Shown: positions 1,019-45,067 of the stretch, one piece after another
Numbering within the stretch: position 1 is the first letter of the stretch
Layout of the letters: the number at the start of each line of letters is the position of its first letter
NCBI GenBank assembly: GCA_038064515.1
Contig: JBBTSY010000004.1
Location: 96,585-160,584, forward strand
Origin: Patescibacteria group bacterium
GTDB lineage: Bacteria; Patescibacteriota; Minisyncoccia; 2-02-FULL-40-12; GWA2-44-9
Reading direction: 5' to 3'
Length of the DNA stretch: 64,000 nt
Notes under the pieces: model-generated
What the model was told of the DNA's origin: nothing
Database searches by the model: none
What the model saw: only the letters and a program-made list of their open reading frames with translations
Translations under genes and position numbers: made by a program

Positions 1019-1049
1019 AATCAGGGGTATATTAGCACAAAATTTCCGA

Positions 1050-1081
1050 AAGAGAAACCGGAGATAATCTCCGGTTTCTCT
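1050..1081 (-). terminator. Perfect 13-bp hairpin (agagaaaccggag-ataat-ctccggtttctct) between the aspS start and the tRNA 3' end. It has a T-rich run following it on the minus strand. Likely an intrinsic terminator for the tRNA/GIY-YIG transcript.
   Basis: Seen directly in the sequence. Position is 7-38 nt downstream of the tRNA 3' end on the minus strand. Confidence 0.4.
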
Positions 1082-1087
1082 CGTATG

Positions 1088-1160
1088 TGCGCCCACCAGG
1101 ACTCGAACCTGGGACCTTCTCCTTAAAAGGGAGCAGCTCTACCAACTGAGCTATGGGCGC
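1088..1160 (-). tRNA. tRNA-Lys: tRNA-Lys, anticodon TTT (UUU), 73 nt, no encoded CCA.
   Basis: The reverse complement folds as a cloverleaf: acceptor GCGCCCA/TGGGCGC, D-arm GCTC-AGTTGGTA-GAGC, anticodon loop CTTTTAA (anticodon TTT), T-arm CCAGG-TTCGAGT-CCTGG, discriminator A. Confidence 0.8.
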
Positions 1161-1411
1161 ATTCTTATAAATCCTTCATCAACCATCTTCTCAATGTAAT
1201 CCTTCCTCTTTAGTTTTTTCAATTTTCTTTCCACGCTTCTCGCCTCAACCAACGTATCATACTCCTGACTTAAGACTAGACGCAGTCTACCTAACCTCTT
1301 TGTTGATGGAGTATATCCTCCTAAGTGGTGTTTTAGCCTTTCATCCAAATTTTCCGTACTACCAATGTAATACCTATTATATTCACTTTTAAGTATGTAG
1401 ACGTAATACAT
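1151..1411 (-). CDS. GIY-YIG (URI-domain) nuclease-family small protein, 86 aa. Its last three codons and stop (ATG CGC CCA TAG = MRP*) are supplied by the 5' end of the tRNA-Lys gene.
   Basis: Translation MYYVYILKSEYNRYYIGSTENLDERLKHH shows the GIY-(x10)-YIG motif with the conserved R/H/E/N. Confidence 0.7.
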   Translation of the reverse strand: MYYVYILKSEYNRYYIGSTENLDERLKHHLGGYTPSTKRLGRLRLVLSQEYDTLVEARSVERKLKKLKRKDYIEKMVDEGFIRMRP

Positions 1412-1537
1412 CGAACTGAGTCCCGACGCTCGAAGAGGTCGGGACCCCGACTTATCGTCGGGGCTATGGGCGCGTAATCCGGAGCTATATTAGCAGGAAA
1501 AACCTATTTCTTCAACACACGAAAACAATTTAAATCC

Positions 1538-3106
1538 TTATTTATTATGAAGTGCTTCATCTAGAAGCCGTTTGAGTTCGGCCGAATCAACTTCTTTCCT
1601 GGGACGCTCTTCTTTTTTATCCTCTCTTGCGGGAAGTTTCTTGCCTTTGAAATCCACCGGTTCGGCAGCCAGCATATTGCCCAGTGTCGCGTGTTCAGAT
1701 TGAGGAGGCTTTGATACCTGACGTTCTTGGCGCGGTCGTTGATCATACGATCTTTCAGGGCGAGGCCTTCTCGGCGGCATATCACGAGTATTGCGTTCAC
1801 GAGGCGATGAAGACACCATTAATGGTTCCCGCCATTTCGCGATAACTCCCTCCACTTCGGCTCGGGGTTTTCCATACGCCTTTTGGGAAGCTTGGATAAC
1901 CTGTGTTCGAGGACTTACTGGCAGTGGCGCGATAGTATCCATCGTTCTTGCGGAAAATGCATGTGATGCTATGCCGTCAATCATCAGTTTTAAATAAATC
2001 TCCCGCTTGCCGAGATCCACAATATTCTGGACAACAAATTCAGGAGCAAATTCTTTTTCCAGCAACTCGGCATCTTCCGCTCCGACGCGGAATGAAATAA
2101 TACTGCCCACGTTGCCAAATACCGCGTCGGAGACGGCTTCATCCATCTGCGCTATGTATTGATGCGCAACCACCAGGCTCAAGTTGAATTTTCGAGCTTC
2201 AGACAGGATGTTTGCGAATGAAGCAGTGGCAAAATTCTGAAATTCATCTACGACAAGTATAAAGTCTTTTCGTTCATTCCGCGGAATATCAACGCGAGAC
2301 ATAGCGGCAAGCTGGATTTTAGTAATAAGCAGGCCGCCGAGTAATCGAGAAGCATCTTCTCCCATTCTCCCTTTCGAAAGGTTTAAGAGGATAATCTTCT
2401 GCTGATCCATCGCTTCGCGCATATCGAAAGAGGATTTAGACTGACCGACAATATTGCGCACGAGCGTATTAGAAACAAATTGTCCGATTTTATTTTGGAT
2501 GGCAGCTGTTGCTTCGGTGGCGAATTTTTCAGTATACTGGGCAAATTCTTGTTCCCAGAATGCTTTTACTTCGGGGTCTTTCACTTGATCTACGACCCAC
2601 TTGCGATAGCTTTTCTCCGCAAACATACGGTTAATACCGAGTAATGTGGATTCGGGTACTTCCAACAACGCCAAGATCGTATAATTCAGAATATACTCCA
2701 TGCGAGCTGACCACAAATCAATCCAAAGCTTTTTGAATACAGCCATAATTCCATCCGTAACTAAGTGTCTTTTATCGGGATCAACCGATTCCATAACATT
2801 GAAAGCAATCGGATATTCCATGTCCGCCGGATTAATGTAAATAACGTCCTTGATGCGGTGCTCGGGAATATAGTCCAGCAGATCTTCCACCGGATCGCCG
2901 TGCGGATCAATAAATGCCAACCCCCGTCCATCTTGGATATCCTGAATTGCGATGTTTTTCAGCAGTTCCGACTTCCCCATGCCTGTTTTACCGATGATGT
3001 ACATGTGCCGGCGACGATCATCCATTTTAATGCCGAAGGTCACGTCCTTATTGCGGAAGTTTGTTTTACCGAACAGAATGATTGGATTGTCGATTTCTTG
3101 TGCCAT
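1538..3106 (-). CDS. TraD/VirD4/HerA-like (DUF87-type) P-loop NTPase with a basic, Pro/Arg-rich C-terminal tail. Looks like a type IV coupling-protein-like ATPase.
   Basis: Walker A IIGKTGMGKSE followed by FIDPHGD, and Walker B ILVVDEFQNF. Total length 522 aa with a disordered RPRPERSYDQRPRQERQ tail. Confidence 0.55.
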   Translation of the reverse strand: MAQEIDNPIILFGKTNFRNKDVTFGIKMDDRRRHMYIIGKTGMGKSELLKNIAIQDIQDGRGLAFIDPHGDPVEDLLDYIPEHRIKDVIYINPADMEYPIAFNVMESVDPDKRHLVTDGIMAVFKKLWIDLWSARMEYILNYTILALLEVPESTLLGINRMFAEKSYRKWVVDQVKDPEVKAFWEQEFAQYTEKFATEATAAIQNKIGQFVSNTLVRNIVGQSKSSFDMREAMDQQKIILLNLSKGRMGEDASRLLGGLLITKIQLAAMSRVDIPRNERKDFILVVDEFQNFATASFANILSEARKFNLSLVVAHQYIAQMDEAVSDAVFGNVGSIISFRVGAEDAELLEKEFAPEFVVQNIVDLGKREIYLKLMIDGIASHAFSARTMDTIAPLPVSPRTQVIQASQKAYGKPRAEVEGVIAKWREPLMVSSSPRERNTRDMPPRRPRPERSYDQRPRQERQVSKPPQSEHATLGNMLAAEPVDFKGKKLPAREDKKEERPRKEVDSAELKRLLDEALHNK

Positions 3107-3112
3107 GGCGTG

Positions 3113-43625: not shown

Positions 43626-44786
43626 TTATAAATTCGAAATTAATAAGGCAGTTGTCTCATTTTCCATTTTAGTTACATTTAATTTCCGGAGCGTATTGCT
43701 TCCTTCTTCAACAAATTTTTCTCGGATGTCCGGCATCGCCCATAGCGTTTTAATGGCTTCGATGAGATTGAATTCGTCGTTGTATTTTACCAAGAAACCA
43801 TTTTCGCCCTGCTGAATAATTTCTCGATTCCCGCCTACTGCTGTGGTGATAATAGGAACTCGAGCGGCCATAACTTCTAATAGCTGGTGCGAGAAACCTT
43901 CATAACCGGTATTAAGGACGAATAAATCGGCGGCCGCGAGGTACGTGGCAAGCTCTTCGCTTCGCTTCTTCCCCACTAGATAAACTTTCCGATCAAGGCC
44001 CAGGTTTTTTACCATCGCCTGGAGAATCTGAAATTCAGGGCCATCACCGATAATAACCAGCCTAAAGAATTGATTTACCCGCAGTAGTTGAGGCATTATC
44101 TTGATGAGCATGCGGAATCCTTTCCAGGGAACCATGCGACCCGCTGATACGATTATGTTACCTGAAATGCCGATCTGCTTGCGCGCTTCCTCTTTCGATA
44201 GTGGAGAGGGTTCAAATTCAACTCCGTTATAAATCACGGTGATGGCATCCTTGCTAACGCCCCAGCCTCGCACAATTTCCGAAAGATATATCGAAGGAAC
44301 TATGATACGAGCGGCATGTCCGCACACCCATATCTGAATCCGGTGAATAATGCCAATCCATCCTCGGCGCGGTTCTTTCTGGAAATCATTGATTAGAAGA
44401 TTAGTTTTTCCTGACTGAATTGCCGTCTCCCAGGCACGATCGCCTACGATTTTCACGATATATTTCTTTTTGAAAAATCGAGATGCCACGAGTGCCGTTG
44501 GCCCCGCGTTAATGGCATTTAATGCGAAAATTAGATCATGATTTTTCGCCGCAAAGAAAACTTTTATCGCGTAGATTGCGTGCCGCACCGGCCATGGCCA
44601 CTTCTTCCAAATTCTGACTACGGCAAATGGCAGGGATTTGTCTCCCTGATCGCTCCACACCGATGAATAGGTGATAACCGTCACACCGTGTGCCTGGGCA
44701 AGTTTCTTACCAATTATTTGAGCATACGATGCCGGCCCGCCAATCTCGGGACTAAAAATCCCTGTTATAATAAGAAGCTTCTTCAT
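43626..44786 (-). CDS. GT4 glycosyltransferase.
   Basis: …GYEGFSHQLLEVMAARVPIITT…. Confidence 0.65.
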   Translation of the reverse strand: MKKLLIITGIFSPEIGGPASYAQIIGKKLAQAHGVTVITYSSVWSDQGDKSLPFAVVRIWKKWPWPVRHAIYAIKVFFAAKNHDLIFALNAINAGPTALVASRFFKKKYIVKIVGDRAWETAIQSGKTNLLINDFQKEPRRGWIGIIHRIQIWVCGHAARIIVPSIYLSEIVRGWGVSKDAITVIYNGVEFEPSPLSKEEARKQIGISGNIIVSAGRMVPWKGFRMLIKIMPQLLRVNQFFRLVIIGDGPEFQILQAMVKNLGLDRKVYLVGKKRSEELATYLAAADLFVLNTGYEGFSHQLLEVMAARVPIITTAVGGNREIIQQGENGFLVKYNDEFNLIEAIKTLWAMPDIREKFVEEGSNTLRKLNVTKMENETTALLISNL

Positions 44787-45067
44787 CCTGTAGTAGAATT
44801 TTGATTAATTTTTCGATTATATAAATAATCTTTAATTCTAGATTTAATTAAACGTCCGCCTTGGGTAGTCTTTAGATATTTCTCTCTTCGCTTAGCGTCA
44901 CTTTCTTCTAGGCAAGCTTCGTAATAAATTAGTTTCCACGGCATATACCTTTTGGTCGAAAAATTCAATCCTCGATTATGTTCTAATAGGCGTTGCTTTA
45001 AGTCGGAGGTGAAACCAGTATATAGTTCGCCATTCATTTCACTTTGGATAATGTAGGTATAGAACAT
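44783..45067 (-). CDS. GIY-YIG nuclease-family small protein; second copy in the window.
   Basis: MFYTYIIQSEMNGELYTGFTSDLKQRLLEHN. Confidence 0.65.
   Translation of the reverse strand: MFYTYIIQSEMNGELYTGFTSDLKQRLLEHNRGLNFSTKRYMPWKLIYYEACLEESDAKRREKYLKTTQGGRLIKSRIKDYLYNRKINQNSTTG

What the first reader, a model, noticed from the sequence alone, without database searches (positions are those of the whole stretch)
1088..1474. tRNA-Lys with attached GIY-YIG gene and a duplicated 5' tRNA fragment interrupted by twin GC hairpins
The GIY-YIG ORF runs into tRNA-Lys, and its last codons plus stop (ATG-CGC-CCA-TAG) are the tRNA's first 10 nt. Immediately upstream of the ORF start (1412-1474, minus strand) the tRNA 5' end is repeated: GCGCCCATAG…CTCAGTT. 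Between positions 10 and 11 of that repeat sit two perfect GC-rich hairpins, CCCCGAC-GATAA-GTCGGGG and TCCCGAC-CTCTTCGAGC-GTCGGGA.
This pattern suggests either a GIY-YIG homing-type element inserted into or next to a tRNA gene and carrying a replacement tRNA, or a decayed tandem tRNA copy. It fits the frequent association of GIY-YIG mini-genes with tRNAs in small genomes.
Basis: seen in the sequence. Interest (0 to 1): 0.55.

Follow-up and report, generated by a model that had tools for sequence, protein, structure and literature searches.

The report
Nuclease-hairpin cassette lodged in tRNA-Lys gene
A tiny selfish-looking cassette (a twin DNA hairpin plus an 86-residue GIY-YIG nuclease gene) sits between the promoter and the body of a tRNA-Lys gene. 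It rebuilds the tRNA at its own end, and the same design recurs at many tRNA genes across Patescibacteria, which no paper I could search describes.

Summary
tRNA-Lys(UUU) lies at 1088-1160 (-). An 86-aa GIY-YIG ORF (1151-1411) takes its last codons and its TAG stop from tRNA nt 1-10. Upstream lies a second copy of tRNA nt 1-17, split at 10/11 by two perfect hairpins.

It is not a local oddity. In 80 species-level Patescibacteria genomes, homologues of this ORF abut the 5' end of a same-strand tRNA in 75. In 34 of these the stop codon is tRNA U8-A9-G10. A twin hairpin with the same CCGAC/GTCGG core lies upstream of the ORF in 63 of 74, usually inside a copy of that tRNA's own 5' part.

Relatives that share the gene order have an identical tRNA-Lys with no cassette, so the cassette is an insertion.

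The twin hairpin is also a dispersed repeat. It occurs without the ORF in front of other tRNAs and in-frame inside housekeeping genes.

The closest known system is Ssn/SRM (Chenal 2025): single-domain GIY-YIG nucleases flanked by hairpin repeats that they cut as single-stranded DNA. The tRNA-embedded layout is not described there.

Verdict: a real feature and a new variant of a known kind. The mechanism is inferred, not shown.

The parts
1486..1497 (-). Promoter-like extended -10 (TGCTAATAT), 13 nt upstream of the displaced tRNA nt 1. Presumed to be the resident tRNA promoter, now driving fragment, hairpins, ORF and tRNA as one transcript.
   Evidence: The same motif, TTTTGTGCTAATATA, lies in front of the AspRS gene (D1: 1028-1042 and 1486-1500). 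The simple sigma-70 scan did not call it. Across loci a -10-like hexamer is enriched upstream of the fragment, 26% against 6% in controls. Its role is inferred.
1464..1473 (-). Displaced copy of tRNA-Lys nt 1-10 (GCGCCCATAG).
   Evidence: Exact repeat of 1151-1160 (D3; sequence).
1445..1463 (.). Hairpin 1 of the twin hairpin (TH): CCCCGAC-GATAA-GTCGGGG.
   Evidence: I18; DNA folds. Family rule: NN-CCGAC-G...GTCGG-N'N'. The loop starts with G in 86 of 90 copies.
1421..1444 (.). Hairpin 2 of the TH: TCCCGAC-CTC TTCG GAG-C-GTCGGGA. It directly abuts hairpin 1 and is the reverse-complement form of a hairpin-1-type unit.
   Evidence: I12. The spacer between the two hairpins is 0 in 90 of 90 copies, and the loop ends in C in 81 of 90.
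1414..1420 (-). Continuation of the displaced fragment: tRNA nt 11-17 (CTCAGTT), followed by CG and the ATG.
   Evidence: Exact repeat of 1144-1150 (D12). After removing the hairpins in silico, the fragment reads as a contiguous nt 1-17.
1151..1411 (-). 86-aa single-domain GIY-YIG nuclease gene. The stop codon lies inside the tRNA.
   Evidence: Invariant Y5, Y15, G17, R25, H29 and E61 in 37 homologues. Structure model pLDDT 87; closest folds are UPF0213 BH0048 and Slx1. dN/dS is 0.05-0.23.
1088..1160 (-). Intact tRNA-Lys(UUU), identical in sequence to the tRNA-Lys of cassette-free relatives.
   Evidence: Identity to L087 and L090 is from my reading of the sequences.
1051..1081 (-). Terminator-like perfect 15-bp inverted repeat just after the tRNA 3' end. 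It closes the transcription unit. There is no displaced 3' tRNA fragment here.
   Evidence: I1.

Best explanation
The region is a compact, selfish-type cassette of the 'small GIY-YIG nuclease plus cognate hairpin repeat' kind. It has inserted into the 5' part of the tRNA-Lys gene.

Anatomy, reading the minus strand:
1. the resident promoter
2. the original tRNA nt 1-10
3. a 43-bp two-fold-symmetric twin hairpin (TH)
4. tRNA nt 11-17
5. an 86-aa nuclease ORF
6. a complete tRNA-Lys, whose first 10 nt also supply the ORF's last codons and its stop

Equivalently, about 313 bp (TH, D-arm remnant, ORF, and a fresh copy of nt 1-10) sit between G10 and C11 of the gene.

Shown here: the anatomy; its recurrence at many tRNAs; the empty site in relatives; the conservation, covariation and fixed orientation of the TH; and purifying selection on the ORF.

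Inferred:
(a) The ORF and the tRNA are co-transcribed from the tRNA promoter. RNase P releases the tRNA and in doing so removes the mRNA's stop codon.
(b) By analogy with SsnA and Slx1, the nuclease binds the hairpins when the DNA is single-stranded or extruded, and cuts beside them. One hairpin-1-type unit lies on each strand, so cuts would fall at both TH borders, which here is the tRNA 10/11 junction.
(c) The resulting breaks are repaired by recombination that copies the TH, with or without the ORF and tRNA sequence, into other tRNA genes. Only events that leave one intact tRNA survive, which would explain the partial duplications.
For: Recurrence:
- In 75 of 80 species-level loci the homologous ORF lies directly 5' of a same-strand tRNA. 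There are 34 cases with a 10-nt overlap and 29 with gaps of 0-19 nt.
- Three more loci have a tRNA-Asn that ARAGORN missed. In two of them Rfam finds a group I intron.

Fragments and hairpins:
- After removing the hairpins, the upstream region is a contiguous 5' fragment of the cognate tRNA.
- Of 62 upstream THs, 47 have recognisable tRNA flanks. The TH sits at 10/11 in 30, at 15/16 in 16 and at 22/23 in 1. The fragment is identical to the tRNA in 32 of the 47.
- The link between TH and ORF: 63/74 against 4/48 for other tRNAs in the same loci, Fisher p = 5e-18.
- TH structure: zero spacer in 90 of 90; the outer base pairs are Watson-Crick in 76 and 79 of 90, with at least 5 pair types. Orientation relative to the ORF is fixed.

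Insertion and replacement:
- Empty site in L087 and L090.
- Split resident tRNA with a replacement tRNA in L036 and L038. Arrays of successive displaced fragments in L079 and L005.

The TH is a dispersed insertion element: about 75 genuine-looking copies in metagenome contigs, 9 with a GIY-YIG-like ORF nearby, 15 located 9-77 nt upstream of a tRNA 5' end, and many in-frame inside genes.

The protein is a single-domain GIY-YIG with the catalytic residues intact. It is closest to UPF0213 and Slx1 and has dN/dS of 0.05-0.23.

Precedent: SsnA cuts single-stranded DNA next to the hairpin repeats that flank its own gene (PMC11893778).
Against: - No nuclease activity, target or mobility event was observed. 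All of (a) to (c) is inference.
- Only 9 of about 75 solo THs have such an ORF within 700 nt. This 64-kb window holds a single TH.
- All same-strain contigs carry the cassette, so no within-population polymorphism was seen.
- ORF pairs are near synonymous saturation, and L026/L035 are syntenic. In some lineages the cassette is therefore old and vertically inherited, which also fits a domesticated gene.
- No target-site duplication flanks the THs inside genes, by my reading of the flanks. The tRNA duplication is therefore not an automatic product of TH insertion.
- No clear Shine-Dalgarno sequence precedes the ATG.
- Membership of the Ssn clade (cd10448) could not be tested. The nearest solved relatives are UPF0213 proteins.
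Confidence: 0.6

Rival explanations
1. A classical free-standing homing endonuclease gene of the T4 SegB type. The protein itself recognises and cuts cassette-free tRNA genes, and double-strand-break repair copies the ORF together with flanking tRNA sequence. The hairpins are unrelated repeats that later landed in the redundant tRNA fragment.
For: There is a GIY-YIG domain. Relatives have an empty site. The element sits in tRNA genes, as SegB sits in the T4 tRNA cluster (the details of SegB are from my own knowledge). Tandem and nested arrays of fragments occur. THs do insert elsewhere on their own.
Against: The protein is only 86 aa and has no DNA-binding domain. Known GIY-YIG homing endonucleases are two-domain proteins (PMC11893778). 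The TH is present in 63 of 74 cassettes, in a fixed orientation, although it is rare elsewhere: one copy in this 64 kb, and 4 of 48 other tRNAs. A secondary, neutral hit would not do that. The intact tRNA copy still contains any tRNA-internal target.
Confidence: 0.15
2. Not mobile today. It is an old partial tandem duplication of the tRNA 5' end. The duplicated piece was hit by a palindromic repeat, and a domesticated small GIY-YIG gene uses the strong tRNA promoter. The arrangement is then inherited vertically.
For: Synonymous sites are near saturation between the closest ORF pairs, and L026/L035 are syntenic. All same-strain contigs carry it. The ORF's nearest neighbour sits at the same tRNA type in 44 of 76 cases.
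Against: It is absent from syntenic relatives with an identical tRNA. It occurs at about 16 anticodon classes, and 32 of 76 nearest neighbours sit at a different tRNA type. The fragment is identical to the cognate tRNA in 32 of 47 loci, although neutral sites are saturated. Resident tRNAs are split and replaced by another allele in L036 and L038, and there are successive displaced fragments in L079 and L005.
Confidence: 0.12
3. An RNA-level leader. The tRNA-like 5' fragment with its two stem-loops is a regulatory or processing structure for the ORF and tRNA transcript, for example a decoy for RNase P, a stabiliser, or an alternative pairing partner for the tRNA 3' acceptor strand.
For: It lies in the 5' untranslated part of the presumed transcript. 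The stems covary. The fragment often matches the tRNA exactly.
Against: The TH is two-fold symmetric as duplex DNA. The conserved unpaired G is on the 5' side of hairpin 1, and the conserved C is on the 3' side of hairpin 2. The two hairpins are therefore equivalent in DNA but not in RNA, and both strands fold equally well. The same TH occurs on either strand inside coding genes and in unrelated intergenic sites. In 9 of 47 loci the fragment has 2 or more mismatches in the acceptor part and cannot pair with the tRNA 3' end. It is absent at orthologous loci. Rfam has no match.
Confidence: 0.06
4. An intron-like or split tRNA. The upstream nt 1-10 act as a 5' exon that is spliced to nt 11-76, and the hairpins plus ORF form an intron in the D-arm.
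For: The insertion point 10/11 is exact, and the fragment is in the correct orientation behind a promoter-like site.
Against: A complete, canonical tRNA follows, so no splicing is needed. No ribozyme is detected. Genuine group I introns in related loci are found readily and sit in the anticodon loop.
Confidence: 0.02

Closest known systems
Ssn nucleases with SRM/NTS hairpin repeats (Chenal et al. 2025, Nat Commun, PMC11893778)
   Same: A single-domain GIY-YIG protein of about 90 aa with no DNA-binding domain. The gene is flanked by short hairpin-forming inverted repeats (20-50 nt) that are also dispersed through the genome. The layout is IS-like (repeat - gene - repeat, seen here in about a dozen loci). 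In Ssn, cutting beside the hairpin in single-stranded DNA is shown; here it is inferred.
   Different: The hairpin sequence is different (core CCGAC/GTCGG). The repeat is a back-to-back doublet with two-fold symmetry. The gene is embedded in a tRNA transcription unit, fused to the tRNA 5' end, and the repeat sits inside a duplicated tRNA fragment. The repeats also lie in-frame inside genes, whereas NTS is rarely intragenic (2%). The host is Patescibacteria. That paper does not mention tRNA or Patescibacteria. Membership of the cd10448 clade was not tested.
REP/REPIN repeats and RAYT transposases (PMC3116915, PMC3337134; listed, not read)
   Same: One protein gene is flanked by its palindromic repeats, and many repeat copies without a gene lie elsewhere. 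The repeats come as inverted doublets. (From my own knowledge of the system.)
   Different: RAYTs are HUH/Y1 enzymes, not GIY-YIG. REPs are extragenic. There is no tRNA association.
Rickettsia palindromic elements (RPEs; from my own knowledge, Ogata et al. 2000)
   Same: Short palindromic selfish elements tolerated as in-frame insertions in conserved protein genes and also found in RNA genes. The TH is in-frame in gatA, recG, uvrA, gyrA, purL and others.
   Different: RPEs are about 100-150 bp and unrelated in sequence. Chenal et al. note that Rickettsia is rich in SRMs, which may link the two systems.
Free-standing GIY-YIG homing endonuclease SegB in the phage T4 tRNA gene cluster (from my own knowledge; see also PMC13096335, listed)
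   Same: A GIY-YIG gene lodged among tRNA genes that promotes inheritance of its own locus.
   Different: SegB is a two-domain protein of about 220 aa in a phage. It has no hairpin repeats, no fusion to a tRNA and no duplicated tRNA fragment. No relatives of our ORF were found in the viral contigs.
tRNA-targeting integrative elements (att duplication of part of a tRNA; from my own knowledge)
   Same: The insertion is within a tRNA gene. The element supplies the missing part, so an intact tRNA is rebuilt and a displaced fragment remains. Repeated events leave arrays of fragments.
   Different: Those elements use tyrosine or serine integrases, target the 3' end and are kilobases long. Here the 5' end is duplicated, the whole unit is about 0.3-0.5 kb, and no integrase is present.

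Membership tests
[quoted passage not shown] | Single-domain GIY-YIG protein of about 90 aa with intact catalytic residues. | tested here: met
   86 aa; PF01541 covers residues 1-70. Y5, Y15, G17, R25, H29 and E61 are invariant. The model is a GIY-YIG core plus one C-terminal helix.
[quoted passage not shown] | Falls in the cd10448 clade (CDD assignment, or BLAST hit to N. meningitidis SsnA at E<1e-10). | not testable with these tools
   Neither CDD nor the SsnA sequence was available. The nearest solved relatives are UPF0213 proteins 1zg2 and 1ywl (E = 4e-9 and 2e-7), followed by Slx1.
[quoted passage not shown] | Gene flanked by hairpin-forming repeats that also occur elsewhere in genomes. 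| tested here: met
   A TH lies upstream of the ORF in 63 of 74 loci, and on both sides in about 12. Solo THs occur in metagenome contigs. In this window there is only one copy, on the 5' side.
[quoted passage not shown] | Matches the published SRM/NTS motif. | tested here: not met
   The NTS is CGTCATTCCCGCGMAVGCGGGAATCYRG. The TH core is NNCCGACG..GTCGGNN. The two share no sequence by eye, so this would be a different specificity class.
[quoted passage not shown] | Site-specific cleavage of single-stranded DNA next to the hairpin, with no activity on double-stranded DNA or RNA. | not testable with these tools
   This needs biochemistry.
GIY-YIG homing endonucleases (I-TevI, Seg and Mob type) | An N-terminal GIY-YIG domain plus a C-terminal DNA-binding domain that gives long-target specificity. 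| tested here: not met
   86 aa with no second domain. The match to TIGR01453 is only 17.7 bits against a cut-off of 56.
GIY-YIG homing endonucleases (I-TevI, Seg and Mob type) | Presence/absence polymorphism at a conserved target, with an intact target in the empty allele. | tested here: met
   L087 and L090 have an identical tRNA-Lys without the cassette. This holds between species only; same-strain contigs are all occupied.
Group I intron in a tRNA gene | A catalytic RNA core interrupting the tRNA. | tested here: not met
   Rfam finds only the tRNA in 900-1700, and the tRNA is uninterrupted. As a positive control, Intron_gpI is detected in L049 and L058.
Integrase-mediated tRNA-targeting integrative element | A tyrosine or serine recombinase gene next to the duplicated tRNA segment. 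| tested here: not met
   The only ORF between the repeats is the GIY-YIG gene. The neighbours are a VirD4-like ATPase and AspRS.
UPF0213 / Slx1-like structure-specific nucleases | Sequence and fold similarity of the GIY-YIG core. | tested here: met
   1zg2 at E = 4e-9 by profile search. Foldseek: 1zg2 at E = 2e-4; Slx1 6seh with TM 0.61, rmsd 2.4 over 71 columns and 34% identity. No function is known for the bacterial UPF0213 proteins.

The most novel reading that the evidence does not exclude
The cassette is a previously unrecognised class of mobile element: a roughly 0.3-0.5 kb 'tRNA-gene replacement drive'. An Ssn-type nuclease, positioned by its twin hairpin and perhaps by the flanking tRNA-derived single strands, breaks tRNA genes. 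The essential gene is then rebuilt only from a template that also carries the nuclease gene and the hairpin. Loss of the element would be lethal, and the same hairpins are seeded throughout the genome, including inside housekeeping genes.
Probability: 0.2. Interest if true: 0.85.

Novelty: new variant of a known kind. Interest (0 to 1): 0.62.

Why it matters
- If the inference holds, it extends the newly described Ssn nuclease/hairpin-repeat systems to the Patescibacteria (CPR), and it shows them in a form that is plainly an insertion.
- It would explain why so many tiny GIY-YIG genes sit next to tRNAs in these reduced genomes.
- It identifies a phylum-wide palindromic repeat that invades tRNA leaders and, in-frame, core genes such as gatA, recG, uvrA and gyrA.
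- It points to a new nuclease/motif pair (NNCCGACG...GTCGGNN) that could be tested directly as a single-stranded-DNA-specific cutting tool.
- It flags a systematic annotation hazard. The ORFs end inside tRNAs, and the pseudo-tRNA fragments carrying hairpins produce false tRNA calls (for example the second 'tRNA' calls in L010 and L036).

Tried and rejected
- Rfam on the region: only the tRNA, plus one sub-threshold plastid match on the opposite strand of the tRNA.
- NCBIfam, PADLOC and PHROGs: nothing meaningful for either GIY-YIG protein.
- Viral contigs: no relatives of the ORF, so there is no evidence for a phage origin.
- Second GIY-YIG gene (44783-45067): 38% identical, wedged between two glycosyltransferase genes, with no tRNA and no CCGAC hairpins. 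It is not the same kind of cassette.
- Target-site-duplication model (staggered cut around CTCAG): rejected, because the CTCAG copies lie inside the hairpins, not outside them (L038), and THs inside genes show no duplication.
- Hairpins as transposon ends with the ORF between them: rejected for this window, because the ORF lies outside the doublet.
- The idea that the TH is specific to this cassette: rejected by the metagenome scan.
- The sigma-70 consensus scan does not call the presumed promoter. The cross-locus -10 enrichment is only modest.
- Search for an empty site within the same strain, using exact-protein look-ups of the ORF and of the neighbouring ATPase: all contigs are occupied.
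- Literature searches for GIY-YIG with tRNA and Patescibacteria or CPR found no description of this arrangement.
- A formal covariance model of the TH was not built. Too few equal-length copies were available for a gap-free alignment, so direct pair counts were used instead.
Full report
**1. The observation**

The window carries a single tRNA gene, tRNA-Lys(UUU), at 1088-1160 on the minus strand (ARAGORN; Rfam 70.7 bits). An 86-codon ORF at 1151-1411 (-) is a GIY-YIG catalytic domain and nothing else (PF01541, E = 2.7e-13).

Its end reads ATG CGC CCA TAG:
- The G of ATG is tRNA G1.
- CGC and CCA are tRNA nt 2-7.
- The stop is the near-universal U8-A9-G10.

Reading the minus strand upstream of the ATG, the order is:

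| Element | Coordinates |
|---|---|
| Extended -10-like TGCTAATAT | 1486-1497 |
| GCGCCCATAG, a second copy of tRNA nt 1-10 | 1473-1464 |
| Hairpin CCCCGAC-GATAA-GTCGGGG | 1463-1445 |
| Hairpin TCCCGAC-CTCTTCGAGC-GTCGGGA | 1444-1421 |
| CTCAGTT, tRNA nt 11-17 | 1420-1414 |
| CG, then ATG | 1413-1409 |

The hairpin core motif occurs nowhere else in the 64 kb, with 0.02 expected by chance. Both DNA strands fold into the doublet with equal stability.

**2. It is one member of a large, conserved family of cassettes**

A protein search found 189 relatives. Nearly all are 86-88 aa, and those with a source name come from Patescibacteria. I fetched 80 loci from distinct species-level genomes and analysed them with ARAGORN and scripts.

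Position relative to a tRNA:
- In 75 loci the ORF lies immediately 5' of a tRNA on the same strand.
- In 34 of these the stop codon is tRNA nt 8-10, exactly as here.
- In 29 the gap is 0-19 nt.
- In 10 a second unit without an ORF lies in between.
- Three further loci have a tRNA-Asn that ARAGORN missed. In two of them Rfam finds a group I intron.
- In L054 and L077 the order is mirrored: tRNA, ORF, hairpins, tRNA 3' end.

The tRNAs are Thr, Phe, Arg, Val, Asn, Lys, Ile and Met, plus one Gly, in about 16 anticodon classes. The last two residues of each protein are therefore dictated by the acceptor stem of whichever tRNA follows: PP for GCCGCCU, PR for GCCGAGG, RP for GCGCCCA, and so on.

**3. 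The duplicated 5' fragment and the twin hairpin (TH) are also general**

- Strict TH matches number 90 in 70 of the 80 loci.
- A TH lies within 160 nt upstream of the ORF in 63 of 74 cases. For the other tRNAs in the same loci the figure is 4 of 48 (Fisher p = 5e-18).
- When the hairpins are removed in silico, the upstream region becomes a contiguous 5' fragment of the cognate tRNA, from nt 1 to nt 15-40.
- Of 62 upstream THs, 47 have recognisable tRNA flanks. The TH sits after nt 10 in 30, after nt 15 in 16 and after nt 22 in 1.
- The fragment is identical to the downstream tRNA in 32 of those 47. It has 2 or more mismatches in 9, where it looks like another allele of the same isoacceptor.

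**4. Anatomy of the TH**

- Hairpin 1 is NN-CCGAC-G-(variable upper stem and loop)-GTCGG-N'N'.
- Hairpin 2 is NN-CCGAC-(upper stem, often Y-GAA-R)-C-GTCGG-N'N'.
- The two abut with zero spacer in 90 of 90 copies.
- The outer two base pairs are Watson-Crick in 76 and 79 of 90 copies. They use at least five different pair types, which is covariation.
- The hairpin 1 loop starts with G in 86 of 90. The hairpin 2 loop ends with C in 81 of 90.

Hairpin 2 is thus the reverse-complement form of hairpin 1, and the doublet reads the same on both strands. That argues for a DNA-level site, not an RNA-level one. Each strand, when single, presents one hairpin of the same type. The orientation relative to the ORF is nevertheless fixed. 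Hairpins also nest inside hairpin loops (L018, L019, L028, L045 and others).

**5. It is an insertion**

The downstream neighbour is AspRS. Relatives with 77-84% identical AspRS keep the gene order DUF8128, VirD4-like ATPase, tRNA-Lys, AspRS, peptidase S11.
- In L087 and L090 the tRNA-Lys is identical in sequence to the window's. It follows a promoter-like TTGACA/TTGAAA site directly, with no ORF, no TH and no fragment.
- In L088 the tRNA is inverted. It has a solo copy of nt 1-11 and an unrelated hairpin about 60 nt upstream, which is possibly a scar.
- Within the window's own strain every contig carries the cassette.

**6. Evidence that the family moves and can replace tRNAs**

- In L036 and L038 the upstream 5' fragment and a downstream 3' fragment (nt 11 or 16 to 76) have complementary acceptor strands. 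They are the two halves of one resident tRNA. Between them lie TH, ORF, a different intact tRNA of the same anticodon, and another TH.
- L079 has two successive displaced 3' fragments.
- L005 shows three generations of fragments.
- L004, L013, L030, L033 and L039 carry a 'fragment - TH' unit without an ORF between the ORF and the tRNA. In L039 that unit still begins with the ORF's ATGCCA.
- The ORF's nearest neighbour sits at the same tRNA type in 44 of 76 cases, against 15 expected by chance. It sits at a different type in 32.

Against frequent movement, ORF pairs have dN/dS of 0.05-0.23 with synonymous sites near saturation, and L026/L035 are syntenic. The cassette is therefore old in some lineages.

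Yet the TH and the fragment are conserved there, and in L035 the fragment is identical to that tRNA. Neutral relics would not behave this way. It implies selection, gene conversion or repeated re-creation.

**7. The TH is a dispersed insertion element**

It gave about 75 genuine-looking THs, defined by paired outer bases and contig GC below 0.6.
- Only 9 have a GIY-YIG-like ORF within 700 nt.
- Fifteen lie 9-77 nt upstream of the 5' end of an intact tRNA, never downstream, as 'fragment | TH | D-arm continuation - spacer - tRNA' without an ORF.
- About 30 lie inside open reading frames, many of them long.
- Pfam shows that these frames include purL, a uvrD/addA-like helicase-nuclease, recG, uvrA, gyrA, gatA and a pilB-type ATPase.
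- In gatA the TH-encoded segment aligns to a gap of about 14 residues in solved GatA.

The TH therefore behaves like the Rickettsia palindromic elements. I did not verify the taxonomy of these contigs.

**8. The protein**

The AlphaFold model (pLDDT 87) is a GIY-YIG core plus one basic C-terminal helix. The closest solved relatives are the function-unknown UPF0213 proteins BH0048 and EF2693, followed by the structure-specific nuclease Slx1. Y5, Y15, G17, R25, H29 and E61 are invariant in 37 homologues.

**9. Comparison with what is known**

Chenal et al. 2025 (PMC11893778) showed the following for Ssn proteins:
- They are single-domain GIY-YIG proteins of about 94 aa (cd10448).
- Their genes are flanked by hairpin repeats (SRM/NTS) that are also dispersed in the genome.
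- They cut single-stranded DNA a few nt upstream of the hairpin, in a directional manner.
- They do not act on double-stranded DNA or RNA.
- The repeat - gene - repeat layout resembles an insertion sequence.

The present cassette works like that on every count I could test. The differences are these:
- The motif sequence is different.
- The doublet is symmetric.
- The gene is embedded in a tRNA transcription unit.
- The TH occurs inside genes.
- The host phylum is different.

That paper mentions neither tRNA nor Patescibacteria, and my literature searches found no description of this arrangement. Membership of the cd10448 clade is untested.

**10. Most likely mechanism**

The steps below are inferred unless stated.
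1. The resident tRNA promoter drives one transcript: fragment, TH, ORF, tRNA. There is no room for a promoter between the ORF and the tRNA.
2. RNase P releases the tRNA and thereby removes the ORF's stop codon. Full-length protein with normal termination can then come only from unprocessed RNA.
3. The nuclease recognises hairpin-1-type folds, one on each strand, when the DNA is single-stranded or extruded. It cuts at the TH borders.
4. Break repair copies the TH, with or without the ORF and tRNA sequence, into tRNA genes. The D-arm offers the preferred contexts: TAG^CTCAG^TTGGTAG^AGC.
5. Because each tRNA is essential, only products that retain one intact copy survive. Those are the observed 5' or 3' partial duplications.
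6. A single crossover between a circular or tandem intermediate carrying '(nt ..x) TH (x+1..)' and a tRNA gene reproduces all three observed forms: left fragment only, right fragment only, or both. Which form results depends on where the exchange falls.

The main rivals are a classical homing endonuclease with the hairpins as bystanders, a fixed and domesticated arrangement, an RNA leader, and an intron. They are weighed in the structured fields.

**11. Verdict**

The feature is real, recurrent and structured. It is a new variant of the Ssn nuclease/hairpin-repeat kind, placed in a tRNA gene. The architecture is secure. The mechanism is a reasoned inference that needs biochemistry and population data.

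Noticed in passing
L165:1693-3219 (gatA); L153:434-2764 (recG); L103:1090-3882 (uvrA); L156:4051-5679 (gyrA); L135:4218-7322 (purL); L181:7397-10120 (uvrD/addA-like); L108:10400-12127 (pilB-type ATPase): The same twin hairpin lies in-frame inside conserved housekeeping genes. It adds 13-20 residues, often PRR...G.PTEASG. In gatA the segment aligns to a gap in solved GatA. This is behaviour like the Rickettsia palindromic elements, in low-GC metagenome contigs.
   Followed up: partly
L097, L098, L109, L113, L114, L128, L132, L147, L149, L162, L169, L179, L188, L203, L210: Units without an ORF: a tRNA 5' fragment split by a twin hairpin lies 9-77 nt upstream of an intact tRNA (Arg, His, Thr, Val, Gly, Ile, Asp). 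It is always on the 5' side, never the 3' side.
   Followed up: partly
L021 about 2830-3010; L001 about 2900-3050; L025 about 2860-3110: Pseudo-tRNAs downstream of the intact tRNA are riddled with single CCGAC..GTCGG hairpins in the D-loop, the anticodon stem or loop, and the T-loop.
   Followed up: no
L049:440-796; L058:3156-3403; probably also L041: The tRNA-Asn that follows the GIY-YIG ORF carries a group I intron after the anticodon (Rfam 85 and 80 bits), so ARAGORN misses the tRNA.
   Followed up: yes
L087:2420-2625: In a cassette-free relative, the last 16 nt of tRNA-Lys (AGTCCTGGTGGGCGCA) are repeated about 180 nt downstream of the tRNA. This looks like the att-type scar of another element at the 3' end.
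   Followed up: no
L088:3771-3915: In a relative, tRNA-Lys is inverted relative to AspRS. It has a solo copy of nt 1-11 (GCGCCCATAGC) plus an unrelated hairpin (GTTGGAGG..CCTCCAAC) about 60 nt upstream, with no ORF and no CCGAC hairpin. It may be the scar of a lost cassette.
   Followed up: no
window 44783-45067 (-): A second single-domain GIY-YIG gene of 94 aa, 38% identical to the first, is wedged between two glycosyltransferase genes with a 4-nt overlap. It has no tRNA and no hairpin flanks. A third (104 aa) lies just outside the window, after the peptidase S11 gene (L081:5603-5917).
   Followed up: partly
window 1028-1042 and 1486-1500: The same 15-nt motif (TTTTGTGCTAATATA and TTTCCTGCTAATATA on the minus strand) precedes both the AspRS gene and the displaced tRNA fragment. 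It is probably an extended -10 promoter type of this organism. The simple consensus scan does not call it.
   Followed up: partly
L082/L213, L083, L086 (same strain as the window): Several independent assemblies break within about 30-120 nt after the GIY-YIG ORF, inside or just past the tRNA. This may reflect repeat-induced or polymorphism-induced assembly ambiguity at this spot.
   Followed up: no
L010:2870-2948; L036:2863-2937: ARAGORN calls a second 'tRNA' that is really a displaced 3' tRNA fragment, using part of hairpin 2 as a false acceptor strand. This is an annotation artefact to expect in these genomes.
   Followed up: partly
window 1-64000: Only one tRNA gene is detected in the whole 64-kb window.
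   Followed up: no
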